A stretch of 26,717 nt of DNA from Acidobacteriota bacterium. Its GTDB lineage: Bacteria; Acidobacteriota; Blastocatellia; Pyrinomonadales; Pyrinomonadaceae. The stretch is from contig JACCYR010000126.1 of NCBI GenBank assembly GCA_013696385.1, positions 1-26,717 of the forward strand, given 5' to 3'. Positions 13,032-26,717 of the stretch are shown in pieces. Below the pieces are notes generated by a model that saw only the letters and a list, made by a program, of their open reading frames with translations, did no database searches and had not been told where the DNA came from. The translations under genes were made by a program, and so were the position numbers. Each line of letters opens with the position of its first letter. Position 1 is the stretch's first letter.

Positions 13032-14195
13032 CTAGACATTGCCGTTGCTGGCAGTCAAAGCACCCAGCAAAGCATCAGCTTTATCGGTTTTTTCCCAAGT
13101 AAATTCATCGTTGGTGCGTCCGAAGTGTCCGAATTTAGCGGTCGCTCTGTAAATCGGACGGCGCAAATCGAGCGTTTCGATAATGTCTTTCGGAGTTAGT
13201 TTAAAATTTTCTTTGACAATTTCAGAAAGCCTATCTTCGTCAACTCTGCCCGTGCCGTGTGTGTCAACTCGAACGGAAACCGGTTCGGCGACACCAATGG
13301 CGTAAGCGAGTTGAACGGTGCATTTTTCAGCTAAACCGGAAGCAACGATATTTTTTGCGATATAACGCGCCATATATGCGGCAGAACGGTCAACCTTTGT
13401 CGGGTCTTTGCCGGAAAACGCGCCGCCGCCGTGCGGTGCGTAACCGCCATAAGTGTCAACAATAATTTTGCGTCCGGTCAGACCGGCATCACCCATCGGA
13501 CCGCCGATGACAAAACGTCCGGTCGGGTTGATGTGATATTTTGTATTCTCGTCCAAAAGCTCGCCGGAAACCGTTGTTTTGATAACCTTCTCTAAAATAT
13601 CAGCCCGCAGTTGTTCAGTGGTTACTTCTTCAGCGTGCTGGGTGGAAATAACGACGGCATCAACGCGGAAAGGTCTGCCGTCACGATATTCAACCGTTAC
13701 CTGAGATTTTCCGTCGGGTCGCAGATAGGGAAGTTCGCCGCTGCGCCGCGCTTCGGACAAACGGCGCGTTAAATTATGCGCCAGTTGAATCGGAAGCGGC
13801 ATCAACTCAGGAGTTTCGTTGCAGGCAAACCCGAACATTAAACCTTGGTCGCCCGCGCCGCCCGTGTCTACGCCTTGCGCGATGTCGGGCGATTGCGTGC
13901 CGACGGCATCAATGACGCTCAGAGTGTTGCAGTCGTAACCGAAACTGGCATTGTTATAGCCAATATCATCAATTGTGTCGCGGACTATTTTTTTATAATT
14001 AACGGTTGCATTGGTGGTAATTTCGCCGGCGATAACAGCAAGACCGGTTGTTACTAATGTTTCACAAGCGACTCTGCCGGTTGCGTCCTGCTCTAAAATA
14101 GCGTCAAGCACAGCATCAGAAATTTGGTCGGCGATTTTGTCGGGATGTCCTTCGGTGACAGATTCCGAAGTAAATAAAAAATTTGTGTTACTCAA
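13032..14195 (-). CDS. metK: S-adenosylmethionine synthetase
   Basis: [57 protein letters not shown]. Likely start TTG 14195 downstream of AAGGAG (track start 14219 would put the SD inside the ORF). Confidence 0.98.
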
Positions 14196-14282
14196 TTTGT
14201 TTGTAACTCCTTTATACAAATATATAAATATACAAATATAGAAATAAAAAATTAAATCTTTAGGAAAGATAGCAAAAGGGAA

Positions 14283-14311
14283 ATTTTATCGTTTAATTTA
14301 AGAAGTGTCAA
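14283..14311 (-). promoter_or_regulatory. near-consensus sigma70 promoter of metK(-ahcY)
   Basis: Minus strand TTGACA (14311-14306), 17-nt spacer, TAAAAT (14288-14283). Confidence 0.75.
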
Positions 14312-14320
14312 AAGCGGTTG

Positions 14321-14359
14321 GAAACTTATTAAGTTTCTTGTTGCTGAATTTTTCAGCAA
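14321..14359. promoter_or_regulatory. two adjacent perfect palindromes upstream of the metK -35
   Basis: GAAACTT-ATT-AAGTTTC (14321-14337) and TTGCTGAA-TTT-TTCAGCAA (14341-14359); no U-tract follows on the minus strand. Confidence 0.4.
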
Positions 14360-14420
14360 TGGGTAAGAAGAGAAGAAAAATAAAACATATTGGTTGCGTC
14401 CGATAATAAAGATTATGTTA

Positions 14421-15260
14421 TTAATCTGTTTGGTTATATGACAGATAAGCCAAATTCTTCTTAGTTAGCGAATAACATTCACAAGCCGATTGTTCTAATT
14501 TTTGTCGGTTAAGGATAAAAATTCGCCCGCGGATGTAATCAATAATTCCATTGTTCCGTAAATCCTGAGCAATGAGGGTTAAAGTCGGGCGATGAACTCC
14601 TAGAAAATAGGCGATTTGCTCTTGGGTTAAAATCAACCTGCTTTTTCTGTTGCGGTCGTCGAGCATTAACAGCCAGCTGCAAAAGCGTTCTTCTATTCGG
14701 TGATGGATATTACAGATGGCTCTTTGCGAAATATGGGCGACGTATAAATTTATATAGTCAAGCAATACCGCTTGCAGAAAACCACCGCGACCAAATTCAG
14801 GCTTAAAATTTTTAGCGTTAATCCGCAATGCGATGCCGGCTATCAAAGTTTGCGTCCAAAAAGTCTTTGGTTGAAAACTCAAAATTGTCGATAAACCGGC
14901 TATCCCTTCGTAGCCAATCATTGCTGTTTCGACAGTTCTTCCATCGGCTAAAATATTTAACTGAGAAAAGACGGCAGTTTCGGGAAAATACAAAAACTCG
15001 CTCGTCCCGTCCGGCTGATAAATATCTTCGCCGGAGTTGAAGGAAACCATTTGTAGATGCGGCAGAAGCCGCGCAAAATCAATACTAGGTAAGGCTAAAA
15101 GCAGAGTATTATTTGTCAGTCGTCCGATTGGAAAAGTTTCTCTGGAAACTTGATTCCAATGGCTCGCAAAGCCTTTACCGACAAAAGGCTGACTGACTTT
15201 TAACATTAAAGGCGCATTTCTTTTGATATATCCATTTTTAGTCTTGTAATTATTTATCAT
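14421..15260 (-). CDS. Crp/Fnr family transcriptional regulator (ACECY-tail subfamily)
   Basis: N.LLLALP..DF.RL.PHL, YFPE.AV.S, DG.TVE.A.IG.EG cNMP-fold; H..EERFCSWLL; HTH LTQEQIAYFLGVHRPTLT; C-terminal SACECY; GAGGA SD. Confidence 0.92.
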   Translation of the reverse strand: MINNYKTKNGYIKRNAPLMLKVSQPFVGKGFASHWNQVSRETFPIGRLTNNTLLLALPSIDFARLLPHLQMVSFNSGEDIYQPDGTSEFLYFPETAVFSQLNILADGRTVETAMIGYEGIAGLSTILSFQPKTFWTQTLIAGIALRINAKNFKPEFGRGGFLQAVLLDYINLYVAHISQRAICNIHHRIEERFCSWLLMLDDRNRKSRLILTQEQIAYFLGVHRPTLTLIAQDLRNNGIIDYIRGRIFILNRQKLEQSACECYSLTKKNLAYLSYNQTD

Positions 15261-15279
15261 CAGTTCCTCTTGTGTAGCG

Positions 15280-15312
15280 TTTGGAGTTCAAATTCTAAGT
15301 TTGAACTCCAAA
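15280..15312. repeat. REP-like palindrome, family A copy 1
   Basis: TTTGGAGTTCAAA-TTCTAAG-TTTGAACTCCAAA 13-bp perfect stem; related copy at 19535-19570. Confidence 0.7.
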
Positions 15313-15325
15313 TGCCTGCCCATAT

Positions 15326-15667
15326 TTAATAAACCTTCCTAATGTCGAGGATTATTAATTTCTCGCTACCGTCAAATTCTCGTTCGCTAATCTGTGTCAG
15401 CATAACTTTTACTTCCAACGGGCGTTCGTTAGATTGACAAGTAAAAGTAAATTTTTCCGCCGAATCCGAGCCTTTGGCAAAATAGCGGAAGCGGCGACGA
15501 AGCTCTTCGCCATTTCCAAACGGCGCGATTTCATCAAAAAAATTAAGCCCGATTAAATCCGGCGGCAAATTTACCGAAGAGTTGTTCGCGTCGATTTTGG
15601 AATACTTCACCGTTCCCATTAAATCGAGTTCAAACAACCCGAACACATTCGCTGAAGTATCTTTCAT
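15326..15667 (-). CDS. stand-alone PAS protein, photoactive-yellow-protein-like, lacking the chromophore Cys
   Basis: FGLFELDLMG...P..LIGLNFFDEIAPF...E....F...F..T......P..VKV aligns without gaps to remembered PYP F28-V107; AAGGAG SD; ATGA overlap with the receiver gene. Confidence 0.75.
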   Translation of the reverse strand: MKDTSANVFGLFELDLMGTVKYSKIDANNSSVNLPPDLIGLNFFDEIAPFGNGEELRRRFRYFAKGSDSAEKFTFTCQSNERPLEVKVMLTQISEREFDGSEKLIILDIRKVY

Positions 15668-16170
15668 AAAACTCCTTTAACAGACGTTTCGTGCGGCTTG
15701 TATTTTTTCCTCAGATATTTTTTAAGCCGTATTTCCAATTGACCGAAATCAATCGGCTTAATCATAAAATCATTGGCACCGGCGGCGAGGGCGGAAGCGT
15801 GAACTGACGGTTCGGAATAGCCGGTAATAAAAATAATCACTGGATCACCGGGTTCGGACAGTTGACGAATCCGCCTGGTGGTGGTGAGCGCGTCAATTTT
15901 TTGGAGTCTATCGCTTATTAATATCAAATCGGGACGATGAATTTCAGCCATTTGAATGGCATCCTCGTCATCCGATGCTTCAATAATGCGATAATTCCAA
16001 AGTTTCAATAAATATTTCATCATTAAGCGCGTATCTTCGTCGTTTTCGACAATCAGGATACGCGGGAAAAAATTTATCGTTCGGGCGAAAAGCGAATTAT
16101 CGTTTGTCACTGCATATACCTCGCTGAAAATATGGCTAGGTGAGGATTTGGAGATGTTTGTAAAATTCAT
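15664..16170 (-). CDS. single-domain atypical (pseudo) response regulator receiver
   Basis: ILIVEND...PDLILISD...IIFITG...GANDFMIKP CheY-like fold; S86 at the phosphoacceptor position; GAGAGG SD. Confidence 0.88.
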   Translation of the reverse strand: MNFTNISKSSPSHIFSEVYAVTNDNSLFARTINFFPRILIVENDEDTRLMMKYLLKLWNYRIIEASDDEDAIQMAEIHRPDLILISDRLQKIDALTTTRRIRQLSEPGDPVIIFITGYSEPSVHASALAAGANDFMIKPIDFGQLEIRLKKYLRKKYKPHETSVKGVL

Positions 16171-16244
16171 AAACTTTTACCTCTCACGCTTGTCAGAACC
16201 GCTAATGGAATTGGGACGGATTAAAATAAGTTTTAGAAATTATT

Positions 16245-16294
16245 AAAAAATAAAAAAATTAGAAGGTGAATTTCTGCAAAGAAACTCACCTTCT
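16245..16294 (-). terminator. intrinsic terminator ~75 nt upstream of the receiver gene start
   Basis: Minus strand AGAAGGTGAGTTTCT-TTGC-AGAAATTCACCTTCT (15 bp, one G-U that pairs only on the minus strand), then AATTTTTTTATTTTTT. Confidence 0.8.
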
Positions 16295-16394
16295 CCCCCC
16301 TTGTTCGTGCCGCTGTAGGTTTAACCAAACACGGCGGCAGCTTTCATGAGTTGCTGAAAAAACTTTCCTGTCCGGAAAGTGAAATTCACAACTC
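16245..16394 (-). ncRNA. candidate structured leader/attenuator (or sRNA) with three hairpins
   Basis: Hairpins at 16348-16394, 16308-16339 and 16261-16294 in an otherwise AT-rich intergenic region; no Rfam family recognised. Confidence 0.5.
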
Positions 16395-16444
16395 CAGTTT
16401 TTTGCATTAAATTGATTATCTGCTAGAAAATAATTCATGAACAT

Positions 16445-16487
16445 TAGGAAGATAGGTAAATCAGACAGGGAAAATCCCTACCTGATT
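16445..16487. promoter_or_regulatory. candidate NarL/RcsB-family operator
   Basis: Dyad AATCAG-AC-AGGGA-AAA-TCCCT-AC-CTGATT (16459-16487) plus TAGG half-sites at 16445 and 16453. Confidence 0.35.
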
Positions 16488-16704
16488 AAGCAAGTCCTCA
16501 GCATGAGGTAACATCAGAAAAGACCGCAGATGGCACGAATAAGATAGATTTTCACGGGTTTTATTTTGACTAAAATATCCACCCAATTTCTATTATCCGC
16601 GCTACTCTTTTGTTTTAGGCAAATTTCTTCCGCCGTCACTATTAACAAACTAAGAATCCAATTTTTATCGCCACCCGAAATTTAGTAAAATACCAGCAAA
16701 AATT

Positions 16705-18567
16705 ATGAGTGTTCTTAATTCAAACCACGAATTTGACCAGCACGACCTTTTTCACGTTATTGCGGACGAAACCAATCGTCTGCCGCGTTCTGTTCTTAGG
16801 CGGACGGCTTTTGAGCTGCTCGACGGCAAATGGCGGTTTGCCCTCGACGCCGATGACCGCGGAATCAGCGAACAGTGGTTTATTCAACACGATTTTGCAG
16901 AAACCGCAATGTTTCCCGGTTCAATCGAATCGCATCTTGTCGCTGCTAAAGATTCCAAAGCAGAATCGCCTCTATACACTGAAAGCGATGAAGTAGTCGC
17001 TTGGTATGAGCGCGATTTTAGCGTTCCTGAAGAGTGGAATCGGTCAAATAAAATAACGCAGCTAACATTTGGCGCGTGCGGTTACGAAACGCACGTCTGG
17101 CTCAACGGTGTTCTGCTCAAAACAATCGAAGGCGAAGAAGCGCATCTCGGCGAATACAGTTCGTTTTCATATGAATTGCCTGCCGATTTATTAAAGCCGG
17201 TCAATCGTTTGACGGTTCGCGTTGCCGATACAATAGATGCCGACATCCCGCGCGGCAAACAGGCTTCGCGCGTTTATAAACAAGGCGGCATTTGGTATCA
17301 GACGGTTTCGGGCGCAGTGCGGAGTGTTTGGATTGAACCGGTCGGACGCAATCGTCTGCGTTCGCGGCTTGGAGTTATCAGCAGTTTGCGCGACCATCTA
17401 GTCGAATTCGATTTTACGACCCGCACTCACGAAGCCAGTAAATATCTTCTGCGGCTGACCGTTACGCCGCACGGAAAAACCGAAACGGGCGAGCAAACCA
17501 CTCCGGTTACGGCGCAGTTTCATTTGACTTTGGAAACGGGCGAATACGTCCAGCGTGTTCCGCTTTTGCTGCCGAACGCTAAATTCTGGTCGCCCGACGC
17601 GCCGCATCTCTATCATTTGTGGGCTGAACTGGTCGCACCCGACGGCATTGTAACGGGCATCGAAACTCATTTCGGCTTACGCAAAATCAGCGCGCACGGA
17701 CAGCGCATTTACTTAAATAATGAAGCGATTTATCTGGATGGTATTCTGTATCAGCCAGGCATTTCGACGTTTGAGGAAATACGGCGGCATTTCCATGCCA
17801 TCAAACGACTCGGCTGCAATCTGGCGCGTGTTCACATTGCCGGAATCGACCCGCGCATTTATGATTTAGCCGATGAAATCGGGCTGATGTTGTGGGTTGA
17901 AATTCCTTCGCCGCATAGTTCAAACCAAATGAGCCGTGATAATCACTGGGCTGAATTGCAAAGAATGCTGGTTTTTATCGCTTCGCATCCGTCAATCGTG
18001 CTGCTTAGTTTATACAACGAAGATTGGGGCACGGAAGACATTTCAACCAACGTCGAAACACGAAAATATATTTCCAATACTTTCGATTATCTGCGGCTTT
18101 ACTATCCGCAATTGCTGGTCGTGGATAATGACGGCTGGAATCATGTTTCCCGCAACGGCAGACTTAGCTCGCATCTTTTGACGGCGCACGTATATACGCC
18201 ATCGCCGTCGGCTTGGGTTTCGACTCTCGACCGTCTGGTTGCCGGAGAAACACACGGCATAACGGCGCAGCCTTTGATTGTCGGTGACGAGTATTTTTAT
18301 CGCGGACAAACGCCGCTCGTCATCAGCGAATGGGGCGGTTTCGGTTTTACAAATTACGGCGGACCCGATGAAGTCGAAGGCAAATGCCGTCTGATTCAAC
18401 TATTCAAAGACGAGATGCGGCAACGCCCAATCGCCGGCGACATTTACACGCAGGCAACCAGCATCGAAGATGAAGTGAATGGAATTATTGACCCGACAAG
18501 CGGCGAACTGCTTGTTCCCGCAGGACTTCTCGGCTCATATTCCTACATTGAAATTAAGAAAGAATAA
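16705..18567 (+). CDS. glycoside hydrolase family 2 (beta-galactosidase/galactofuranosidase-like), no signal peptide
   Basis: LDGKWRF..D, WYERDF, L.FGA..Y...VWLNG, WSPDAPHLY, FGLRKI, GQRIYLNNE; putative catalytic Glu in YNEDWG and ISEWGG. Confidence 0.88.
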   Translation: MSVLNSNHEFDQHDLFHVIADETNRLPRSVLRRTAFELLDGKWRFALDADDRGISEQWFIQHDFAETAMFPGSIESHLVAAKDSKAESPLYTESDEVVAWYERDFSVPEEWNRSNKITQLTFGACGYETHVWLNGVLLKTIEGEEAHLGEYSSFSYELPADLLKPVNRLTVRVADTIDADIPRGKQASRVYKQGGIWYQTVSGAVRSVWIEPVGRNRLRSRLGVISSLRDHLVEFDFTTRTHEASKYLLRLTVTPHGKTETGEQTTPVTAQFHLTLETGEYVQRVPLLLPNAKFWSPDAPHLYHLWAELVAPDGIVTGIETHFGLRKISAHGQRIYLNNEAIYLDGILYQPGISTFEEIRRHFHAIKRLGCNLARVHIAGIDPRIYDLADEIGLMLWVEIPSPHSSNQMSRDNHWAELQRMLVFIASHPSIVLLSLYNEDWGTEDISTNVETRKYISNTFDYLRLYYPQLLVVDNDGWNHVSRNGRLSSHLLTAHVYTPSPSAWVSTLDRLVAGETHGITAQPLIVGDEYFYRGQTPLVISEWGGFGFTNYGGPDEVEGKCRLIQLFKDEMRQRPIAGDIYTQATSIEDEVNGIIDPTSGELLVPAGLLGSYSYIEIKKE

Positions 18568-18581
18568 GGTAAAATGAGAGT

Positions 18582-19520
18582 TTAAGTAAAATATGCGACC
18601 AATGCAGAAGCCCGCACGAAGTAAAGGCGATAAGATTTATACGCCCTTACGCGCGTGCGGGCTTCTGCATTTGGAATTCTCTTCAGTTTCCAATATTCGA
18701 GATGTTCGATAGAATCGCCGGGCGCGAGTTTTTTGAGCGGCGCGAGCGATTCGATTTCGATAAAATTGCCTGCCGTATAAAGTTCATTATTCGAGTTCAT
18801 ATCGGGATAAACCGCCGTTTCGATAAAATTAAATTGCTTGGTAAATTCCAAATCGCCAACCAGATATTTTGCCCGACCCTGTTTATTTAAAACGCCGACT
18901 TTTTGCGGTTCGGGTTTGTTTTCGTCAACTTTCAGGCGAATAAAATCCTTATCAAACTTCCAGCGCGAATCAGAAAAATCCGTGTATGACCAGACCGCCA
19001 AATTTCGCACCGGAAGCAGAGTTTCTCCGCCGTAAGGTGCAAACGGCTCGTTCGGAATCAACGCTTCGCCGCCGCCGCGCATAATCGTCAATGCCCACGC
19101 CGCGAGTTCGATTTCCTTGTCGCCGCAATTGGTGATTTTGTGATTTATCGAAACGCCGCTTCCCTTTTCGTCCAGAGTTACGATGATTTCCTTTTGCGTT
19201 TTTGTGATAATTTCAACCGGCTGAACAAGGCGAATCGAATTTCTACGCTCGTCAAATTCATATTCACACGGCGAATTATCGGGCGCGTAACTAATCGGCA
19301 TATTTTCTGGCGCAATCCACAATCGATGCCCGCCGTAAGGCTTAAATTCACCGAGCGCGGTTTCAACTTTCGCATCGAGATGCAAACCTAAAACATTCTC
19401 GCCGCCCGAAAACGCATAATGCAAAATTCGCGGTCCGACATCGGTTGCAGCAATAATTTCAATTTCGCCGTTAGTCAGGCGAAGGCAGTTCGGTAAGTTT
19501 ATGTAAGAGATTTTTTCCAT
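18582..19520 (-). CDS. uncharacterised protein, probable galactose-mutarotase-like beta-sandwich (DUF4380-like)
   Basis: GPRILHY, GGHRLWIAPE...Y.PDN.P, WALT.MRGGG, FIEIESLAP; last gene of the galT-galK run. Start set at ATG 19520 (MEKISY). Confidence 0.7.
   Translation of the reverse strand: MEKISYINLPNCLRLTNGEIEIIAATDVGPRILHYAFSGGENVLGLHLDAKVETALGEFKPYGGHRLWIAPENMPISYAPDNSPCEYEFDERRNSIRLVQPVEIITKTQKEIIVTLDEKGSGVSINHKITNCGDKEIELAAWALTIMRGGGEALIPNEPFAPYGGETLLPVRNLAVWSYTDFSDSRWKFDKDFIRLKVDENKPEPQKVGVLNKQGRAKYLVGDLEFTKQFNFIETAVYPDMNSNNELYTAGNFIEIESLAPLKKLAPGDSIEHLEYWKLKRIPNAEARTRVRAYKSYRLYFVRASALVAYFT
18601..18671. repeat. REPIN-like inverted repeat (family B) inside the 3' end of a CDS
   Basis: 18-bp perfect outer arms AATGCAGAAGCCCGCACG/CGTGCGGGCTTCTGCATT plus inner GTAAAGGCG/CGCCCTTAC; each arm begins GCAG and is itself a short imperfect palindrome. 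Confidence 0.75.
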
Positions 19521-19534
19521 CACAAAAATCAAAG

Positions 19535-19570
19535 TGTTTGGAGTTCCAACTAAAGTTGGAACTCCAAACA
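19535..19570. repeat. REP-like palindrome, family A copy 2
   Basis: TGTTTGGAGTTCCAAC-TAAA-GTTGGAACTCCAAACA perfect 16-bp stem between galK and the next gene. Confidence 0.75.
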
Positions 19571-19574
19571 AAGG

Positions 19575-20738
19575 TTAAAAAATAATTTCGCTCGCGCCGC
19601 CTGCCGGATTTGAAACATAGACATCGGTTGCAATCTGCGTTTGCCGAAAATATTTAATCGAAACTTTTTCGGTAAAATCTTCCAGCTTTTCGCGCCGCAC
19701 GAGATTGACGGTTGAACCGCCGAAACCGCCGCCGGTCATTCTCGCGCCGAGAACGCCCGCACATTCGGAGGCAATTTTCACCAGCAAATCGAGTTCCCGA
19801 CAACTGACTTCGTAGTCATCGCGCAAACTCATGTGCGAAAGCCACATCAACCGTCCGAATTCCTCAAAATCATTTTTTCTTAATGCTTCGGCGGCATCCA
19901 AGGTGCGTTTGTTTTCTGTAACGACGTGGCGGCAACGCTTTCTGATAATTTCCGGCAAATGATTTTTGTATTTTTCAAAATCCGCGACGCTGACATCGCG
20001 CAGGTGAGTAATGCCGGGCAGGAATTTCTGCAAAATCTCAACGCCTTGCTCGCATTCGGCGCGGCGAGTATTGTATTCAGAAGCAGCGAGTTCGTGTTTG
20101 ATGTTTGTGTTGCAAATGGCGATTGCCGCGTCATCGGTCGCAAACGGAACTTGTTCGGCTTGCAACTTGCGGCAATCAATCAAAAGCGCGTGTCCTTTTC
20201 TGCCCAGAGCCGAAACGAATTGGTCCATAATGCCGATTTTCGCGCCGACAAATTCGTGTTCAGCAGCTTGTCCGACAAGCGCAAGTTGAACTTTATCAAT
20301 GCTTTGGTTGGAAATTTCGGTCAATGCCAAACCGACGGAAATTTCCAGCGCGGCGGACGAAGAAAGTCCCGCGCCGGTCGGCACGTCTGAAGAAATCAGC
20401 AAATCCGCGCCGCGCAATTTCACGTTTCGACGTTCCAGAATCCGCGCCACGCCTTCGACAAAATCGAGCCACGAACCGCGAAATTTCTGCTCCGGCGCGT
20501 CTAAATTTATTTCACCTTCTTCGCCTAAATTGACGGAACAAACACGAATTTTCCGGTCTTCACGGACGGCGGCGGCAACAATTGTCGCGTATTCAATTGC
20601 CATCGGAAGAACAAAACCGTCGTTGTAATCGGTGTGTTCGCCAATCAGATTGACTCTGCCCGGAGCGCGGAAAAGTCGCGGCTCGCCTCCGAAACGCGAT
20701 TGATATTCGGTTTGTAAATTCAGGTAATTGATTGCCAT
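19575..20738 (-). CDS. galK: galactokinase
   Basis: RAPGRVNLIGEHTDYNDGFVLP, GHMP motif PTGAGLSSSAA, GIMDQ, GARMTGGGFGG. Confidence 0.98.
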   Translation of the reverse strand: MAINYLNLQTEYQSRFGGEPRLFRAPGRVNLIGEHTDYNDGFVLPMAIEYATIVAAAVREDRKIRVCSVNLGEEGEINLDAPEQKFRGSWLDFVEGVARILERRNVKLRGADLLISSDVPTGAGLSSSAALEISVGLALTEISNQSIDKVQLALVGQAAEHEFVGAKIGIMDQFVSALGRKGHALLIDCRKLQAEQVPFATDDAAIAICNTNIKHELAASEYNTRRAECEQGVEILQKFLPGITHLRDVSVADFEKYKNHLPEIIRKRCRHVVTENKRTLDAAEALRKNDFEEFGRLMWLSHMSLRDDYEVSCRELDLLVKIASECAGVLGARMTGGGFGGSTVNLVRREKLEDFTEKVSIKYFRQTQIATDVYVSNPAGGASEIIF

Positions 20739-20797
20739 TTTAATTTTAACCGCTTAAGAACGCAAGAATTTTCAACAGTATGAATTACGCACAGCCT

Positions 20798-21787
20798 TTA
20801 ATCATTTTTCCAAATTACCGGCTCAACGAGTCGGCGCAGTTCAAACGCTTTTTCTTCGGCGAGCGTGTCGTTGATAAACATTCCCGCGCCGGTTTCGCTG
20901 CCCGCCAAAAATTTCAGCTTTGTCGCGGAGCGCATCGGCGGATAAAATTCGATATGAAAATGATAATAATTATAATCGCCGCCGGACGGTTTTTGGTGCA
21001 AAACCATCATATACGGAAACGACACATCGAAAAGTTTGTCAAAAGCGACTAAAACCTGTTTCAAAATCGAAGCTAAATCAATCTGTTCAGCCGTCGAAAA
21101 CTGCGTCAAATCCGGCAAATGCCGTTTGGCGGCAATGTGCAGTTCATACGGATAACGCGCAAAAAACGGAATATAAGCCGCAAACGAATCATTTTCCGCG
21201 ACGATGCGCCGTCCGTCTCGGCGTTCTTCGGCAACAATATCACACAGCAGACAGCGATTATGTTTTTCCAGATAAAGCCGCGATTGTTCCAACTCTTTCT
21301 CAATCCGCGGCGGCACAAACGGATAAGCGTAAATCTGCCCGTGCGGGTGATGCAGAGTTACGCCGATTGCCTCGCCTTTATTTTCAAAAATAAAAACGTA
21401 TCTGACAAAATCGAGTTTTGAAAGTTCCCGAAAACGGTCTGTCCAAACCTGCACGAGTTTATAAATTTGCTCGACAGGTTCGGCGGCGAGCGTCGAATTA
21501 TGATTCGGCGTGTAGACGACGACTTCGCATTCGCCGAAACTTTTTTCAACCGGATAGAGTTCGGTTGATTCAATTGCCGGTTCGGGCGGATTCGGGCTGA
21601 GACTCGGAAATTTATTCTCGAAAACAACGATGTCATAGACGGGTTCGGGAACTTCGGTCGGAAAACCGCCGGGCGCGGTCGGACACAGCGGACAAAAATC
21701 CTTCGGCGGCAAAAACGTGCGGTCTTGGCGAGCGGTGGCGGTTGCCAGCCATTCGCCCAACAGCGGATTCCATCTTAATTCAGACAT
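20798..21787 (-). CDS. galT: galactose-1-phosphate uridylyltransferase
   Basis: ELRWNPLLGEW, CPLCP, VFENKFPSL, FENKG..IGVTLHHPHGQ (HPH nucleophile), HFHIEFYPP. Confidence 0.97.
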   Translation of the reverse strand: MSELRWNPLLGEWLATATARQDRTFLPPKDFCPLCPTAPGGFPTEVPEPVYDIVVFENKFPSLSPNPPEPAIESTELYPVEKSFGECEVVVYTPNHNSTLAAEPVEQIYKLVQVWTDRFRELSKLDFVRYVFIFENKGEAIGVTLHHPHGQIYAYPFVPPRIEKELEQSRLYLEKHNRCLLCDIVAEERRDGRRIVAENDSFAAYIPFFARYPYELHIAAKRHLPDLTQFSTAEQIDLASILKQVLVAFDKLFDVSFPYMMVLHQKPSGGDYNYYHFHIEFYPPMRSATKLKFLAGSETGAGMFINDTLAEEKAFELRRLVEPVIWKND

Positions 21788-22007: not shown

Positions 22008-22655
22008 TTAATTATCCTCGAGCCAGCCTTGCAAAATAGCAAAGCGCACGATGTCTATGCGGCTGCCGATGTCGAGTTTCCGCATCGCGTTGGCTTTGTG
22101 GGCTTCGACGGTTTTGACGCTGATTTCAAGATTATAGGCAATTTCCTTGTTGCTGTAGCCCCAGGCAATCTGGCGCAGAACTTCCGATTCACGTTCGCTG
22201 AGAGTTAATTTTCCGGCAAGATTAATTTGCCGCGGGGCATAACCGCCGATGACTCTGCCCGTAACTGTCGGGTCGAGATAGTTGCCGCCTTTGGCAATGG
22301 CGCGGATGGCGCGGAGCATTTCGCTCGAAGGACTTTGCTTTAAAACATAACCGCTGGCTCCGGCGCGGAGCAGTTCTTGAAGATAACCGTCATCGGTGTG
22401 GCGTGTCAAGGTTAAAATTTTCATCTGCGGGCAAAGTTGTTTGAGTTTTCGGGTCGCCTTCAGACCGTTTAATTCCGGCATCGTAACATCCATCACGACG
22501 ACATCGGGCTGGAGTTCCTGCGCCATTTTAACCGCGGTGCGACCGTCGCCACATTCGCCGCACACTTCCATATCGGCTTGCGCGTTGATAATCAACCGCA
22601 AACCTTCGCGCACGGTTTCGTGGTCTTCGGCGATAAAAATGCGTAGGTTGTTCAT
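22008..22655 (-). CDS. NarL/LuxR-family DNA-binding response regulator
   Basis: IFIAEDH, PDVVVMD (Asp intact), LTLT, GYVLK; HTH LSERESEVL..IAWG.SNKEIA..L.IS.KTVE.HK.N.M.KL. ATG at 22655. Confidence 0.95.
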   Translation of the reverse strand: MNNLRIFIAEDHETVREGLRLIINAQADMEVCGECGDGRTAVKMAQELQPDVVVMDVTMPELNGLKATRKLKQLCPQMKILTLTRHTDDGYLQELLRAGASGYVLKQSPSSEMLRAIRAIAKGGNYLDPTVTGRVIGGYAPRQINLAGKLTLSERESEVLRQIAWGYSNKEIAYNLEISVKTVEAHKANAMRKLDIGSRIDIVRFAILQGWLEDN

Positions 22656-22681
22656 AAGTTTCAAGTTTCAAGTCTCAAGTC
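22656..22681. repeat. heptamer tandem repeat (AAGTYTC)x3.7
   Basis: AAGTTTC AAGTTTC AAGTCTC AAGTC directly upstream of the regulator ATG. Confidence 0.7.
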
Positions 22682-22706: not shown

Positions 22707-25700
22707 TTACCCGCCCGCAGTCTGCGCTCCCAGCGGGACGCGGACGAAAATCGTTGTTCCCTGATTGATTACCGATTCGATTTCGAGCGTTCCGCCGATG
22801 AGCGCGGCACGTTCGCGCATACCGATTAAGCCCAAGCCTTTTCCGTTCTTCAAAGTTGTCGCTTTTTTAATATCAAAGCCTTGCCCGTCGTCTTCGATAA
22901 TCAGCATAATTTCTTTGCCGCGACATTCGAGCAGCACGGACGCTTGGTTGGCGCGGGCGTATTTGCCGGTGTTGTTCAGGGCTTCCTGCACGATGCGGTA
23001 AAAATTCAGCTCGATTGCCATCTCCAATGCAATCGTTTCCAAACCGCTCGTATGAAATTCCGCCGGAATGTCGAAATGAATTGACCATTCCTTAATATAA
23101 TCATTTAACGCTGTCGTCAATCCCAAATCTTTGAGCGCGGCGGGGCGCAATTCCCAGGCAAGAAAATCGAGGTCGGAATCAACCTGTTCGGCAATTTTTT
23201 GGGTTCGCGTAATCTTTTCGCATAAATCCGCGTTATCCGCGCAATCTTTTTGAAGCATTTCAAGATTCAGGCGGAGCGCGGTCAATTGTTGTCCGAGATG
23301 GTCGTGCAACTCACGCGAAATGCGCTGGCGTTCGTCTTCCTGCGACGTAACGAGTTTTTTTAGAAGCGTCAAGCGTTGCTGCTCGATTTGTTGGCGCTCG
23401 GCGATTTCCGCTTGTAAGGTCGAATTGGCTGAAGCCAACTCGACCGTCCGCAATTGAACCTTTATTTCCAAACTTTCGTGCGCGAGGCGTAATGCTGCTT
23501 CGGCTTGGGTTTTTTCGGTCATATCGCGGGCGATTTTGACAAAGCCGAGCAGATTGCCGCCTTCATCCGCTAAAGCCCGCATTACGCCGGATGCGTAAAA
23601 GCGCGATTCGTCTTTGCGTATGTGAAAGCGTTCGTCTTCGGCAAATCCTTTTTCGCGGGCGGTCTTTGTTTCCTTTTCGGGAACATTGACGGCGCGGTCT
23701 TCGGGCATGAATAAAATTTCGTAATGTTCGCCGATGATTTCACTTTCAGTCCAGCCGAAAATACGCTCCGCGCCGGTGTTCCAAAATTCAATCAAACAAT
23801 TTTCAGCCGAGATGCCGATAATGGCGTAATCCTTCGCGCTTTCGATTAGAAGGCGCAGGCGTTCTTCGCTCTGACGCAGTTTTTCTTCCGATTGTTTTCT
23901 GATAGTTACGTCGCGCGTCGAACCGGCAACGAATTCAACCGTGCCGCCTTTGGCAAAAACGGGCGTGAGAATATATTCGTAAAAACCGTTTTCGCCAGCC
24001 AGATTTGTGAATGACGTTTCGTCTTTGACCATTTCTCCGGTGTCGAAAACGTGCTGAATTTGTTTTTGGAGAAGCACGGCTAAATCCGGTGGATAATTCA
24101 AATCGTGAAAGTTTTTCCCGACAATTTCTTCCGCCGTAATGCCTAATAAATCGAACAACGGCTGATTGGCAAAAACGAAACGCCCATCGCGGTCGAACAA
24201 GTAAGCAAAATCGCTGATTGCCGAAAGCGTCGTATCGAAAATGCGCGTTTGCCGTTCCAGCCGTTCGGCGATTTCCTCTAATTCCTTTCCGTGCCGCTTG
24301 CGCGTCGTAATATCCAAAAAGGTAGCGATAACGCCGTCAATTCGGTTGTCAGCCGTGCGATACGGCAAGATATTCGTCAGATAAACGCGCCCTTCGCTCG
24401 TCGTAACTTCGCGCTCGATTGATTGCAGACTGGCAAGCACCTTTTCGGCTTCGGCGTGTAAATCCGAATCCGAGAGTTTGGTCGTAATATCGGAAATCGG
24501 TCTGCCGATGTCCGCCGGACGCAGATTGTAAATGTCGAGGAGGCGCGGCGTAAATAATTTTATGCGAAGCGAACGGTCGAGAAACAGAGTGCCGATGTCG
24601 GTCGAAGCTATCAGATTGAGAAAATCATCGTTCGATTGGGAAAGTTCTTCGATTTTTATTTTCAATTCCTGATTGACCGTGTGGAGTTCTTCGTTGATTG
24701 ACTGAAATTCCTCTTTGCCGGTTTCGAGTTCTTCAGTCGCCGAACGCAGTTCTTCGTTCATCGCCTGCAATTCTTCGTTCGACGCTTTGAGTTCTTCGGT
24801 CTGCGTTTCGTATTGGTCAACCGTCGTGTGCAATTGCTCGTGCAGCTGCACGAGTTCGGCTTCGAGTTGTCGCGCCGGTTCGTCTAAACTAATCAGCCGC
24901 ACCGCCGTTCTCGCGTCGTTCGCCTCATTTGCTTCTTCAAACAACACGAGCAGAAAACCGCGCGGAACATCCGCGCCTTCGCGCAAAACCGGACGGACGA
25001 CGAGATTGATTTTTTGGATTTTTTCATCACCGATTTGAATTTCAAGCCCGCGTGTTTCGACACTTGCGGCGGTTTGCACCGCCTGATAAAGCGCGGTACG
25101 AAGTGCCAGCCGCAAATCGGGGTGAATAATTTTTAACAGATTATAAGACGGCTCGCCACCCGCCACCGCCAGATATTTTCCGGCGCGCGGTGTCAGATGC
25201 AGAATATCGTAGTTTTCGCTGACGATGATTGACGGCGGCGCGTATTTTTCAAGCAGTCGCTGGTGCAAATCGGTATACGCCATTCGTTCGAGCGCGTTCG
25301 CTTCTTCAATCCGCCGCATTTCAGCCGGGCGCGTCGGCTGTAAATCGGTGCGCGGCAGCATCAAATCGGAAATCGGCAGAGAGACACGGGCATTGACGTT
25401 GCGGCTTTGATAAATGTGATGTTCTTTGTCAGAGACGGCGAATAACTCAACGGCGACATCGGCGGATTCACTTGTTCCCAAAAACAAAAATCCGCCCGCA
25501 TTTAATGAAAAATGGAAAATTTCCATCGCGCGCTTTTGCGCCGCACGGTTAAGATAAATAAGTAGATTGCGGCACGAAACAAGGTCGAGATGCGAAAACG
25601 GCGGGTCTTTGATGACATTGTGAATGGCAAATAAAACACGCTCGCGCAAATCGCGCCGAACACGATAACCGTTCGGTTCGGCGACAAAAAAACGGCGCAG

Positions 25701-26717
25701 GCGTTCCGGGGATACGTCGGCGGTGTCGGTCGCCGTGTAAAAACCTTCGCGGGCAATGGCAATCGCGGATTCGTCAATATCGGTGGCGAAAATTTGTATG
25801 GCGGGCGCGTCTCTCAAATTCTCGGCGTATTCGACGGTGAGCATCGCCAGAGAATACGCTTCTTCGCCCGTCGCGCAGCCCGCAACCCAAACGCGCACAG
25901 TGTCGTTCGCCGTTTTATTCTCGAAAAGTCTGGCGATAATCCGTCGTTCCAGCTGGTTGAAAGTTTCCGAATCGCGGAAAAAATTCGTGACCGAAATCAG
26001 CAAATCACGCAGCAGTGCCGACGCTTCCGACGGCTGTTCGTGCAGCAGGCGCGAATAATCCTGTATACTTTTGAGTTCGTGAACATTGACGCGGCGTTCG
26101 ATGCGCCGGAGAACGGTGGCGCGTTTGTAATTTGAAAAATCGTGTCCGGTGCGGATTCTGAGTTGTGTAAAAATATCATGCAGGGCGCGTTCGTCGGTTT
26201 CTGGTCTTTCCCGCAATTCGGGCGAAATCGTAACTTTGCCGAGATTTTCCCGATAACCGATAATTCTCGCGGGCATCTCCGCCGCGGGCAAAACGAAATC
26301 AACCAATCCGGTTGCTAAAGAATTGCGCGGCATATCAGTATATTCGGCTTCGTTCGGGTCTTGGACAAAAACCACGCCGCCTTTTTCCTTAACGCGCTTC
26401 ATTCCCATCGAACCATCCGCGCCCGTGCCTGACAAAATAACGGCGGCGGCGCGTGATTCGTGCGATTCGGCGAGTGTGCGAAAGAAAATATCAATCGGCG
26501 CACGACGCTCTTCAATCCGCGTTACGTCCGACAAAGCCAGATGCCCGTCGTTCATTTTCAGACTTTTATTCGGCGGAATAACATAGACATGATTCGGCAC
26601 GACTTTAACCTTCTCTTCCTGCACCTGTGTAACCGGAATTGACGCGCTCTGCTGGAGAATTTCCGCCAAAAGACTGTCGTGTTCGGGCGACAGATGCAGA
26701 ATAACGACATATGCCAT
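22707..26717 (-). CDS. CheB-CheR-PAS-PAS-PAS-HisKA_3 histidine kinase (5' end beyond window)
   Basis: CheB (VVILH, PIDIFFRTLA, LSGTGADG), CheR (VWVAGCATGEEAYS, ATDID, CRNLLIY), EEL heptad coiled coil, PAS domains, H-box RELHDHLGQ, HATPase QEALNN/DDGQGF/GLGLIGMRERA. Confidence 0.95.
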   Translation of the reverse strand: MAYVVILHLSPEHDSLLAEILQQSASIPVTQVQEEKVKVVPNHVYVIPPNKSLKMNDGHLALSDVTRIEERRAPIDIFFRTLAESHESRAAAVILSGTGADGSMGMKRVKEKGGVVFVQDPNEAEYTDMPRNSLATGLVDFVLPAAEMPARIIGYRENLGKVTISPELRERPETDERALHDIFTQLRIRTGHDFSNYKRATVLRRIERRVNVHELKSIQDYSRLLHEQPSEASALLRDLLISVTNFFRDSETFNQLERRIIARLFENKTANDTVRVWVAGCATGEEAYSLAMLTVEYAENLRDAPAIQIFATDIDESAIAIAREGFYTATDTADVSPERLRRFFVAEPNGYRVRRDLRERVLFAIHNVIKDPPFSHLDLVSCRNLLIYLNRAAQKRAMEIFHFSLNAGGFLFLGTSESADVAVELFAVSDKEHHIYQSRNVNARVSLPISDLMLPRTDLQPTRPAEMRRIEEANALERMAYTDLHQRLLEKYAPPSIIVSENYDILHLTPRAGKYLAVAGGEPSYNLLKIIHPDLRLALRTALYQAVQTAASVETRGLEIQIGDEKIQKINLVVRPVLREGADVPRGFLLVLFEEANEANDARTAVRLISLDEPARQLEAELVQLHEQLHTTVDQYETQTEELKASNEELQAMNEELRSATEELETGKEEFQSINEELHTVNQELKIKIEELSQSNDDFLNLIASTDIGTLFLDRSLRIKLFTPRLLDIYNLRPADIGRPISDITTKLSDSDLHAEAEKVLASLQSIEREVTTSEGRVYLTNILPYRTADNRIDGVIATFLDITTRKRHGKELEEIAERLERQTRIFDTTLSAISDFAYLFDRDGRFVFANQPLFDLLGITAEEIVGKNFHDLNYPPDLAVLLQKQIQHVFDTGEMVKDETSFTNLAGENGFYEYILTPVFAKGGTVEFVAGSTRDVTIRKQSEEKLRQSEERLRLLIESAKDYAIIGISAENCLIEFWNTGAERIFGWTESEIIGEHYEILFMPEDRAVNVPEKETKTAREKGFAEDERFHIRKDESRFYASGVMRALADEGGNLLGFVKIARDMTEKTQAEAALRLAHESLEIKVQLRTVELASANSTLQAEIAERQQIEQQRLTLLKKLVTSQEDERQRISRELHDHLGQQLTALRLNLEMLQKDCADNADLCEKITRTQKIAEQVDSDLDFLAWELRPAALKDLGLTTALNDYIKEWSIHFDIPAEFHTSGLETIALEMAIELNFYRIVQEALNNTGKYARANQASVLLECRGKEIMLIIEDDGQGFDIKKATTLKNGKGLGLIGMRERAALIGGTLEIESVINQGTTIFVRVPLGAQTAGG

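What the first reader, a model, noticed from the sequence alone, without database searches (positions are those of the whole stretch)
14421..16487. Candidate undescribed signalling module: attenuated leader, pseudo-receiver, PYP-like PAS, Crp/Fnr
Seen: three co-oriented genes, each with its own SD, the first two ATGA-coupled, each a canonical sensor fold with its canonical chemistry removed (no phospho-Asp, no chromophore Cys, no cNMP Arg), behind a switchable leader and a candidate NarL-type operator. Inference: a protein-interaction relay controlling a Crp regulon, possibly switched on by the CheBR kinase/NarL pair 6 kb away. I know no description of this combination, but cannot confirm novelty.
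Basis: inference. Interest (0 to 1): 0.75.

Follow-up and report, generated by a model that had tools for sequence, protein, structure and literature searches.

The report
Kinase-driven REC–PAS–Crp signalling operon
Three small regulator genes behind a conserved DNA operator and a folded RNA leader form the output half of a five-gene signalling cassette shared by many soil Pyrinomonadaceae (Acidobacteriota); the parts are of familiar kinds, but this combination and its leader RNA do not seem to have been described.

Summary
On the minus strand lie a receiver (16170..15664), a PYP-like PAS protein (15667..15326, ATGA-coupled to the receiver) and a Crp/Fnr regulator (15260..14421). The receiver has Ser at the phospho-Asp site, the PAS has Phe for the chromophore Cys, and the Crp has no cNMP Arg.

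- In every relative with enough flank, the order CheBR-PAS kinase, NarL regulator, REC, PAS, Crp is contiguous. The gal/GH2 genes that separate them in this window are a local rearrangement.
- A 15-bp palindrome, TAGGGA-N3-TCCCTA, sits between NarL and the operon in 27 of 30 loci, and about once per genome.
- The leader is a three-hairpin RNA ending in a terminator. It has strong covariation and no Rfam match.
- REC and PAS occur as one fused protein in some metagenomes, so they work as one unit.
- The Asp-to-Ser receiver is derived. Other genera keep a canonical receiver.
- dN/dS is 0.06-0.49, so the genes are not decaying.

Best reading: a FixLJ-FixK-FixT-like cascade in which a split REC-PAS regulator modulates a dedicated Crp. 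The mechanism is inferred. I rate it a new variant of a known kind, of moderate interest.

The parts
22707..26717 (-). Sensor histidine kinase: CheB methylesterase, CheR methyltransferase, 3 PAS, HisKA_3, HATPase. Its N-terminus is cut by the window end. It is the upstream half of the cassette.
   Evidence: Pfam. Contiguous with NarL-REC-PAS-Crp in 7 of 7 relatives that have enough flank.
22008..22664 (-). NarL/FixJ-type response regulator (REC + GerE HTH), the presumed cognate partner of the HisKA_3 kinase
   Evidence: Pfam. It is 62-79% identical in relatives, where it lies directly upstream of the operator and operon.
16466..16480 (.). Operator: 15-bp palindrome TAGGGATTTTCCCTG (family consensus TAGGGA-N3-TCCCTA), centred about 65 bp upstream of the predicted transcription start
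   Evidence: Invariant block in 8 aligned relatives. Present between NarL and the operon in 27 of 30 loci from many genera. Zero to two distinct sites per genome in five genomes, with 0-1 hits for the control pattern.
16415..16443 (-). Predicted promoter: TGTTCA (16443..16438), 17-nt spacer, GATAAT (16420..16415). The weak -35 box suggests dependence on an activator.
   Evidence: Conserved blocks CTTCC..ATGTTCA and gATAaT in alignment A10. The transcription start was not measured (inference).
16250..16408 (-). Structured leader RNA. P1 16394-16385/16358-16348; P2 16339-16330/16317-16308; conserved unpaired GAACAAGGGG 16306-16297; P3 terminator hairpin 16294-16261; U-run 16260-16245.
   Evidence: MFE z = -4.7. 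A covariance model built from the window alone finds full-length matches upstream of the operon in 13 other loci. 92.7% of cells are paired and 32 of 35 pairs change on both sides, against 0 of 500 shuffles. No Rfam match.
15664..16170 (-). Single-domain receiver. In this lineage it is a pseudo-receiver (Ser86 for the phospho-Asp, Asn43 for the second acidic residue; Thr115 and Lys138 kept), with a variable N-terminal extension of about 35 aa.
   Evidence: dN/dS 0.23-0.49.
15326..15667 (-). PYP-like PAS protein without the chromophore Cys (Phe50). It lacks the PYP N-terminal cap and is translationally coupled to the receiver.
   Evidence: AlphaFold model pLDDT 81; best PDB match is PYP, TM 0.62-0.66. 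Fused to REC in P0103, P0105 and P0115. dN/dS 0.06-0.34.
14421..15260 (-). Crp/Fnr-family regulator. It has a disordered N-terminal extension of about 50 aa, no cNMP Arg, and invariant Cys183-x3-His187 and Cys260-x-Cys262.
   Evidence: dN/dS 0.12-0.33.

Best explanation
The triplet is the output operon of a five-gene signalling cassette that is conserved in Pyrinomonadaceae.

1. A cytoplasmic CheB-CheR-PAS-HisKA_3 kinase phosphorylates its NarL-type partner (inferred from domain types and adjacency).
2. NarL binds the TAGGGA-N3-TCCCTA palindrome at about -65 and activates a weak-(-35) promoter (inferred).
3. Transcription then has to pass a conserved three-hairpin leader that ends in an intrinsic terminator. 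This adds a second, so far unidentified, checkpoint.
4. The operon encodes a response regulator split into two polypeptides, a REC input and a PYP-like PAS output. The split is shown by the ATGA coupling and by natural fusions.
5. It also encodes a dedicated Crp-family transcription factor. I propose that the PAS module binds this Crp and tunes it, as a co-activator or anti-activator, in the way PipX acts on NtcA or Sxy on CRP.
6. Ancestrally the receiver was phosphorylatable. In the window's subclade the acceptor Asp became Ser, so here the REC-PAS unit is phospho-independent and control has moved to transcription and the leader.
7. The invariant Cys3-His set in the Crp may add a redox or metal input (speculative).

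The overall logic parallels FixL/FixJ, FixK (a Crp-type regulator) and FixT (a single-domain receiver).
For: - Synteny: kinase-NarL-REC-PAS-Crp is contiguous in L012-L015 and L018-L020. NarL-REC-PAS-Crp, or order variants of it, occurs in about 20 more loci from many genera. The PAS family is found in 142 of 401 family genomes and 38 of 60 genera.
- Operator: conserved in 27 of 30 loci, always between NarL and the first operon gene, including the order variants and the fusion locus. It is nearly unique in each genome.
- Leader: it stays with the 5' end of the operon whether REC or PAS is the first gene, and it shows covariation.
- REC and PAS as one unit: the ATGA overlap is kept in 7 of 8 loci. 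P0103, P0105 and P0115 are REC-PAS fusions, and one of them lies in the same kinase-NarL-[REC-PAS]-Crp context.
- PAS-Crp adjacency persists where REC is missing or has moved.
- The pseudo-receiver is derived: Asp in 15 orthologues, Ser in 7.
- Purifying selection on all three genes.
- The FixLJ/FixK/FixT precedent: PMC7078487.
Against: - No binding, phosphotransfer or expression data exist, and no RNA-seq run holds this locus.
- The palindrome could be bound by the Crp itself (autoregulation) rather than by NarL.
- Nothing shows that the PAS protein touches the Crp. It could act back on the kinase, as FixT does, or bind a small ligand.
- No conserved antiterminator was found, so the terminator may be constitutive or leaky, or the leader may be a separate small RNA.
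- In this window the kinase/NarL pair is 6 kb away.
- The Crp model is of modest confidence (pLDDT 65), and the closeness of the Cys and His residues in space could not be checked.
Confidence: 0.5

Rival explanations
1. FixT-type negative feedback. The receiver, with or without the PAS protein, acts back on the CheBR kinase by inhibiting autophosphorylation or draining phosphate. The Crp is then simply a NarL-induced downstream regulator that needs no partner.
For: Caulobacter FixT is a single-domain receiver. It is induced by the FixLJ-FixK cascade, inhibits FixL and was never seen to be phosphorylated (PMC7078487). A phospho-independent inhibitor would tolerate the Asp-to-Ser change seen here. 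The kinase is always adjacent.
Against: The most persistent adjacency is PAS-Crp, not REC-kinase, and REC is missing or displaced in several loci. The REC-PAS fusions point to PAS as the receiver's output. The 4-Cys motif of FixT is absent (alignment).
Confidence: 0.2
2. The PAS protein is an independent small-ligand or redox sensor. It shares the operon but signals to something else, and the three genes are co-transcribed regulators without direct contact.
For: Stand-alone paralogues of the PAS protein lie without an adjacent Crp or REC (L034, L043). The domain also occurs in an MCP-type protein and in a protein with 23 repeats. Tyr22, the counterpart of PYP Tyr42, is nearly invariant, which would fit a retained pocket.
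Against: Translational coupling and natural fusion with REC. Strict synteny with the Crp over many genera. No conserved Cys or His for a cofactor.
Confidence: 0.15
3. The 'leader' is not an attenuator. It is a separate NarL-dependent small RNA gene with its own terminator, and the operon is transcribed from an unrecognised promoter in the roughly 85 nt downstream.
For: It has a strong terminator, 15 bp plus a U-run. No conserved alternative pairing was found. The most conserved element is an unpaired GARCAAGGGG just before the terminator, which looks like a seed or protein-binding site.
Against: The distance from the terminator to the first start codon is held at about 85-96 nt. No promoter-like site was found on that strand between the terminator and REC, and that stretch is poorly conserved. 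The element always travels with the 5' end of the operon.
Confidence: 0.25
4. The three genes are decaying remnants of sensors, that is, pseudo-domains without function.
For: Loss of the phospho-Asp, of the chromophore Cys and of the cNMP Arg.
Against: The ORFs are intact and of conserved length in more than 30 genomes. dN/dS is 0.06-0.49, and 0.14-0.40 in the least saturated pairs. There are many invariant residues.
Confidence: 0.03

Closest known systems
FixL-FixJ / FixK / FixT cascade of alpha-proteobacteria (PMC7078487)
   Same: A PAS-containing histidine kinase works with a NarL/FixJ-class regulator. These induce a gene for a Crp/Fnr-type factor that does not bind cNMP, together with a single-domain receiver that acts without being phosphorylated.
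   Different: The kinase here carries CheB and CheR domains and a HisKA_3 core, and no haem-PAS was shown. The receiver is paired or fused with a PYP-like PAS domain. The Crp and the receiver are in one operon behind a structured terminator leader. The receiver lacks FixT's 4-Cys motif. The phylum is Acidobacteriota.
Photoactive yellow protein family (TIGR02373; Xing, Gumerov and Zhulin 2022, PMC9664959) and its 'PYP_like' branch
   Same: PYP is the best structural and sequence match. The FG..LD..G, Tyr42, GxNFF and AP motifs are kept. It is a small single-domain protein encoded next to signalling genes.
   Different: Cys69 is Phe, Glu46 is not conserved and the N-terminal cap is absent. The score is far below the family cut-off (38 against 143 bits). 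No TAL or pCL gene was seen in the window ORFs that I annotated. It is therefore not a photoreceptor of the PYP type. The paper mentions Cys69-less distant homologues only in passing.
Small-protein modulators of Crp-family factors: PipX-NtcA and Sxy/TfoX-CRP (from my own knowledge)
   Same: A small protein encoded separately from the Crp-family factor modulates it by direct contact.
   Different: The folds are unrelated (PipX is Tudor-like). No contact was shown here, and the modulator here would be under receiver control.
Palindromic operators of NarL/FixJ-family regulators, for example the BvgA heptads TTTCCTA and the RcsB box TAAGAAT-ATTCCTA (recalled from memory)
   Same: An A/T-centred inverted repeat with TAGGxA / TxCCTA half-sites, lying upstream of the -35 box.
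   Different: Binding was not tested. The total length is odd (15 bp), and the exact half-site differs.
Terminator-containing 5' leaders (riboswitches and attenuators) in Rfam
   Same: The promoter-proximal structured RNA ends in an intrinsic terminator upstream of the regulated operon.
   Different: No Rfam family matches. No conserved antiterminator or leader peptide was found, and no ligand is known.

Membership tests
Response regulator receiver (PF00072) | Domain profile match above the gathering score | tested here: met
   70.7 bits against a cut-off of 30.2
Response regulator receiver (PF00072) | Phospho-acceptor Asp at the end of strand 3 | tested here: not met
   Ser86 in the window and in 6 close relatives; Asp in 15 orthologues from other clades and genera
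Response regulator receiver (PF00072) | Acidic pair after strand 1, conserved Thr/Ser, and Lys-Pro | tested here: inconclusive
   Glu42-Asn43, so the second acidic residue is lost. Thr115 and Lys138-Pro139 are kept.
Photoactive yellow protein (TIGR02373; PMC9664959) | Equivalog score at or above the cut-off | tested here: not met
   38.3 bits against 143.05
Photoactive yellow protein (TIGR02373; PMC9664959) | Cys69 for the thioester to p-coumaric acid | tested here: not met
   Phe50 aligns to Cys69. The position is Phe or Leu in all 11 relatives.
Photoactive yellow protein (TIGR02373; PMC9664959) | Tyr42 and Glu46, which hydrogen-bond the chromophore | tested here: inconclusive
   Tyr22 aligns to Tyr42 in the HMM alignment and is nearly invariant. 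The Glu46 position is Asp26 here and is not conserved.
Photoactive yellow protein (TIGR02373; PMC9664959) | PAS fold closest to PYP | tested here: met
   Model pLDDT 81. The top 22 PDB matches are PYP, with TM 0.57-0.66.
Crp/Fnr transcription factors | C-terminal Crp-type winged HTH | tested here: met
   PF13545, 57.5 bits against a cut-off of 27. PDB matches are 1o5l, 3dv8, FixK2 and NtcA.
Crp/Fnr transcription factors | N-terminal beta-roll effector domain followed by a long dimerisation helix | tested here: inconclusive
   cNMP_binding scores 15.8 bits, below the cut-off of 27.5. The model shows strands at 70-148 and a helix at 161-186, at pLDDT of about 65.
Crp/Fnr transcription factors | cNMP-binding Arg-Ser/Thr (CRP subfamily) or N-terminal Cys cluster (FNR subfamily) | tested here: not met
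   Invariant Trp135-Thr136 stand at the Arg82-Ser83 position (alignment by eye). There is no Cys in the N-terminal 180 residues. Instead Cys183-x3-His187 and Cys260-x-Cys262 are invariant.
FixLJ-FixK-FixT-type cascade | PAS kinase and NarL/FixJ-class regulator adjacent to a Crp-type gene and a single-domain receiver | tested here: met
   Gene order in 7 relatives and in many genera
FixLJ-FixK-FixT-type cascade | The regulator activates the Crp gene, and the receiver inhibits the kinase | not testable with these tools
   Only a conserved operator between NarL and the operon is shown.
Intrinsic-terminator attenuator or riboswitch | GC-rich hairpin plus U-run between the promoter and the first gene | tested here: met
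   15-bp stem plus U-run, conserved with compensatory changes
Intrinsic-terminator attenuator or riboswitch | Mutually exclusive antiterminator pairing that is conserved among relatives | tested here: not met
   The best duplex between upstream sequence and the 5' arm of the terminator moves from place to place. Its z-score is above -2 in 10 of 14 sequences.
Intrinsic-terminator attenuator or riboswitch | Match to a described RNA family | tested here: not met
   No Rfam match at E up to 1 in 14000-17000

The most novel reading that the evidence does not exclude
The leader is a new class of cis-acting RNA switch, either a riboswitch or a protein-dependent antiterminator, with the invariant GARCAAGGGG as its core. 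It gates a phospho-independent REC-PAS partner-switching unit. That unit controls a Crp-family factor whose hinge is locked by a Cys3-His metal or redox site. The result would be a three-input decision device (kinase signal, RNA signal, redox) that has no described counterpart.
Probability: 0.15. Interest if true: 0.8.

Novelty: new variant of a known kind. Interest (0 to 1): 0.55.

Why it matters
Almost nothing is known experimentally about signalling in Acidobacteriota, which are among the most abundant soil bacteria. This cassette is widespread in one of their major families: the PAS gene is found in about a third of the sampled genomes and in 38 of 60 genera.

It offers four things that can be tested directly:
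- a nearly unique operator paired with a cognate NarL-type regulator;
- an unclassified structured RNA leader with strong covariation;
- a natural series running from a phosphorylatable receiver to a pseudo-receiver within one genus, and from split to fused REC-PAS, which shows how receivers become phospho-independent;
- a function for the Cys-less 'PYP-like' PAS proteins that the PYP literature has left unexplained.

It also gives CheB-CheR-fused kinases, whose role is unknown, a defined downstream target.

Tried and rejected
1. Alignment-based search for related loci failed because no stretch was conserved enough. I used the single protein instead.
2. A MAFFT alignment of the leader gave a poor consensus fold because the hairpin arms were misaligned. 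I replaced it with a covariance model built from the window sequence alone.
Family-wide searches therefore used the insensitive single-sequence model. The whole-genome screens missed copies known from the loci, so I make no claim about how far the leader extends.
4. The extra model hits in G254 and G008 (L055, L056) lie at convergent gene ends and are probably ordinary terminators.
5. The second copies of the palindrome in G008 and G009 lie in unrelated contexts, one of them a phage-tail-like region. No regulon was found.
7. The leader-peptide idea was rejected. The 52-aa ORF at 16444..16286 starts upstream of the predicted transcription start and is not conserved; it is 18 aa in L015 (sequence inspection).
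8. The RNA-seq search found only low-depth metagenome contigs of unknown kind, which were uninformative.
10. The hairpin is not NarL's terminator. It keeps its distance to the operon start and not to the NarL stop, it persists in the window where NarL is 6 kb away, and it precedes PAS where REC is absent.
Full report
**1. What is there**

On the minus strand the window carries three genes:
- a 168-aa receiver at 16170..15664;
- a 113-aa protein at 15667..15326, whose ATG overlaps the receiver's TGA as ATGA;
- a 279-aa Crp/Fnr regulator at 15260..14421.

The domain evidence is as follows.
- The receiver matches PF00072 (E 1.4e-19) and the third protein matches HTH_Crp_2 (E 1.4e-15). Its cNMP_binding score is only 15.8 bits, below the cut-off.
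- The middle protein has no Pfam domain. It matches the NCBIfam PYP equivalog weakly (38 bits against a cut-off of 143) and PYP chains in the PDB (E 5e-5).
- An AlphaFold model built on 79 homologues has pLDDT 81. Its best structural matches are PYP, at TM 0.62-0.66.

The organism is a Pyrinomonadaceae MAG (Acidobacteriota). The genome is 71% complete and the contig equals the window.

**2. The 'missing chemistry'**

Receiver. HMM alignments to PhoP and PleD put Ser86 where the phospho-Asp should be and Asn43 at the second acidic position. Thr115 and Lys138-Pro139 are kept. The neighbouring Asp87 is not a rescue, because close relatives have Ser-Gly, Ser-Leu or Ser-Ile there.

This state is derived. 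Of 22 distinct orthologues taken from the same gene position, 15 have a fully canonical site (LILMD..LPxLDG, Ser/Thr, Lys-Pro). These 15 include all orthologues recovered from loci of other genera. Seven orthologues, all in one subclade of the window's genus, have Ser.

PAS protein. PYP Cys69 aligns to Phe50, and the position is Phe or Leu in all relatives. The HMM alignment pairs Tyr22 with PYP Tyr42, and Tyr22 is nearly invariant. Glu46 is not conserved, and the N-terminal cap of PYP is absent.

Crp. It has neither the cNMP Arg nor an FNR-type N-terminal Cys cluster. Instead Cys183-x3-His187 and Cys260-x-Cys262 are invariant in 29 orthologues and paralogues.

**3.

- REC-PAS-Crp is syntenic in 9 genomes of the genus.
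- A profile search finds the PAS family in 142 of 401 sampled family genomes and in 38 of 60 genera. That tally includes two unpublished genomes, G149 and G072. No specific claim here rests on them.
- In some 20 further loci from many genera the order NarL-REC-PAS-Crp recurs. The variants are PAS-Crp-REC, REC missing, and a second Crp paralogue.
- Pairwise dN/dS (NG86) is 0.23-0.49 for REC, 0.06-0.34 for PAS and 0.12-0.33 for Crp.
- In the least saturated pairs (dS 0.3-0.8) the values are 0.31-0.40, 0.14-0.23 and 0.19-0.30. Most other pairs are saturated in dS, so these figures are rough, but none is near 1.

Both refutation criteria fail, so the module is real and maintained.

**4. The triplet is half of a larger cassette**

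In all seven relatives with enough flank the order is contiguous and co-oriented: CheB-CheR-PAS-HisKA_3 kinase, NarL-type regulator, REC, PAS, Crp.

In the window the same kinase (26717..22707) and NarL (22664..22008) are separated from REC by four genes: galT, galK, an unknown gene and a GH2 gene, at 16705-21787. In relative G009 the GH2 and unknown genes lie upstream of the kinase instead. The window therefore shows a local rearrangement.

Contigs from three metagenome runs bridge the operator and the start of GH2 (records 7, 14 and 22). This argues against a chimeric assembly, although one of those runs may be the source sample of the MAG.

**5. Operator and promoter**

Aligning the region upstream of the leader in eight relatives shows an invariant palindrome, TAGGGA-N3-TCCCTA, at window 16466-16480. 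It is followed by the conserved blocks CTTCC..ATGTTCA and gATAaT. I read these as TGTTCA-N17-GATAAT (16443..16415), a promoter with a weak -35 box. The palindrome would then be centred near -65 (inference).

- The palindrome, with at most 2 mismatches, lies between NarL and the first operon gene in 27 of 30 loci. This includes the order variants and the fusion locus.
- The exact core occurs at zero to two distinct sites per genome in five genomes, with 0-1 control hits. The second copies are in unrelated contexts.
- The half-sites resemble NarL/FixJ-family operators such as the BvgA heptads and the RcsB box (from memory).
- NarL is the best conserved protein of the cassette (62-79% identity, against 34-67% for the Crp). 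This fits an invariant operator.
- Binding by the Crp itself cannot be excluded.

**6. The leader**

From about 16408 to 16250 the transcript would fold into three hairpins, P1, P2 and P3. P3 is a 15-bp terminator stem at 16294..16261, followed by a U-run. The MFE z-score is -4.7, and -5.2 for the orthologue in L012. Single-sequence MFE folds of six orthologues give the same three hairpins despite different stem sequences.

A covariance model built from the window sequence alone found full-length matches upstream of the operon in 13 other non-redundant loci. Where REC is absent, the match lies upstream of PAS. On that alignment, which does not include the window:
- 92.7% of cells pair;
- 32 of 35 pairs show changes on both sides;
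- 0 of 500 shuffles reach the observed values;
- sliding the partners cuts the covariation score from 0.55 to at most 0.15.

The caveat is that the alignment was fitted to the model.

The most conserved unpaired element is GARCAAGGGG, directly before the terminator. Rfam has no match.

The hairpin keeps a distance of 85-96 nt to the first start codon. Together with its persistence in the window without NarL upstream, this rules out its being NarL's terminator.

The element is a real, unclassified leader containing a terminator. That it 'switches' remains unproven, and a separate small RNA is a live alternative.

**7. REC and PAS are one functional unit**

- The 4-nt ATGA overlap is kept in 7 of 8 loci.
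- In an exhaustive profile search (602 cluster representatives at E up to 1e-3, mostly about 115 aa), three hits are REC-PAS fusion proteins: P0103, P0105 and P0115.
- P0103 is encoded on two independent metagenome contigs in the context kinase, NarL, 430-nt spacer with the palindrome, REC-PAS, Crp.
- The fused receivers have Asp at the acceptor site, and one has Glu.

The PAS domain is thus the output domain of a response regulator that is usually split into two polypeptides.

**8. Mechanism proposed**

- Shown: the gene content, the order, the cis-elements, the fusions, the derived pseudo-receiver and purifying selection.
- Inferred: kinase to NarL~P, to the palindrome, to activation of the promoter, to read-through of the leader, to REC, PAS and Crp.
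- Inferred: the REC-PAS unit modulates the adjacent Crp by contact. PAS-Crp is the most persistent adjacency.
- Inferred: in the window's subclade the unit no longer depends on phosphorylation.

The logic parallels FixLJ, FixK and FixT. In that system FixT is a single-domain receiver that acts without being phosphorylated (PMC7078487). A FixT-like feedback on the kinase is the main rival. The Cys3-His set of the Crp suggests a redox or metal input but is untested.

**9. Novelty**

Each part belongs to a known superfamily.
- The PYP paper of Xing et al. (PMC9664959) notes a 'PYP_like' branch with Cys69 substitutions, and signalling neighbours for some PYPs. It does not describe this cassette.
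- Source annotations for the homologues are generic: 'hypothetical protein', 'Crp/Fnr family transcriptional regulator'.
- My two literature searches that bear on the cassette turned up no description of the five-gene cassette, its operator or its leader RNA. These were searches of a limited library, so they are not proof of absence.

I rate it a new variant of a known kind. The RNA leader is the most likely element to be truly new.

**10. Verdict**

Interest is moderate, at 0.55.

Noticed in passing
window 16705-21787: The GH2 gene, an unknown 329-aa gene, galK and galT lie between NarL and the REC operon only in this genome. In relative G009 the GH2 and unknown genes lie upstream of the kinase. 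This is a local rearrangement that split a cassette that is otherwise contiguous.
   Followed up: partly
window 14421-15260 (Crp residues 183, 187, 260, 262): The motifs Cys-x3-His at the end of the dimerisation helix and Cys-x-Cys near the C-terminus are invariant in 29 orthologues and paralogues. They could form a metal or redox site. Their closeness in space could not be checked.
   Followed up: partly
P0058 and P0061 (metagenome proteins): One protein of 4799 aa has 23 matched stretches of this PYP-like domain. Another, of 1174 aa, combines an MCP signalling domain with four of them. The domain is therefore also used in giant repeat proteins and in chemoreceptor-type proteins.
   Followed up: partly
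P0115: This REC-PAS fusion has Glu at the phospho-acceptor position (..LIVVESFLP..). That could be a natural phosphomimetic and a third state beside Asp and Ser.
   Followed up: no
L020, L042, L045, L046, L052 (downstream of the Crp): Several genera carry a second, paralogous Crp directly after the first, with the same Cys/His motifs. Others carry a further single-domain receiver after the Crp (L036, L039-L041, L048, L050, L051).
   Followed up: partly
L002, L003, L010: A short ORF lies next to the module. Its N-terminus resembles that of an ECF-sigma factor (..GEKSAVED / GDKTAVEDCI..). It lies after the Crp in L002 and L003, and in L010 it lies in the place of REC. This rests on inspection by eye; no family search was run on it.
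   Followed up: no
G008:C20:6218-6232 and G009:C17:71135-71149 (L066, L065): These are second exact copies of the TAGGGA-N3-TCCCT palindrome, in unrelated contexts: an intergenic stretch, and a region encoding phage-tail-like proteins. They are probably chance copies or secondary targets.
   Followed up: partly
window 16245-16306: The conserved G-run before the terminator can pair by G-U with the U-run after it, which lengthens the stem in the MFE folds of the window and of L012. It is unclear whether this affects termination.
   Followed up: no
window 16762-16821: One metagenome contig (run X1) lacks 58 nt inside the 5' part of the GH2 gene. This is strain-level indel variation.
   Followed up: no
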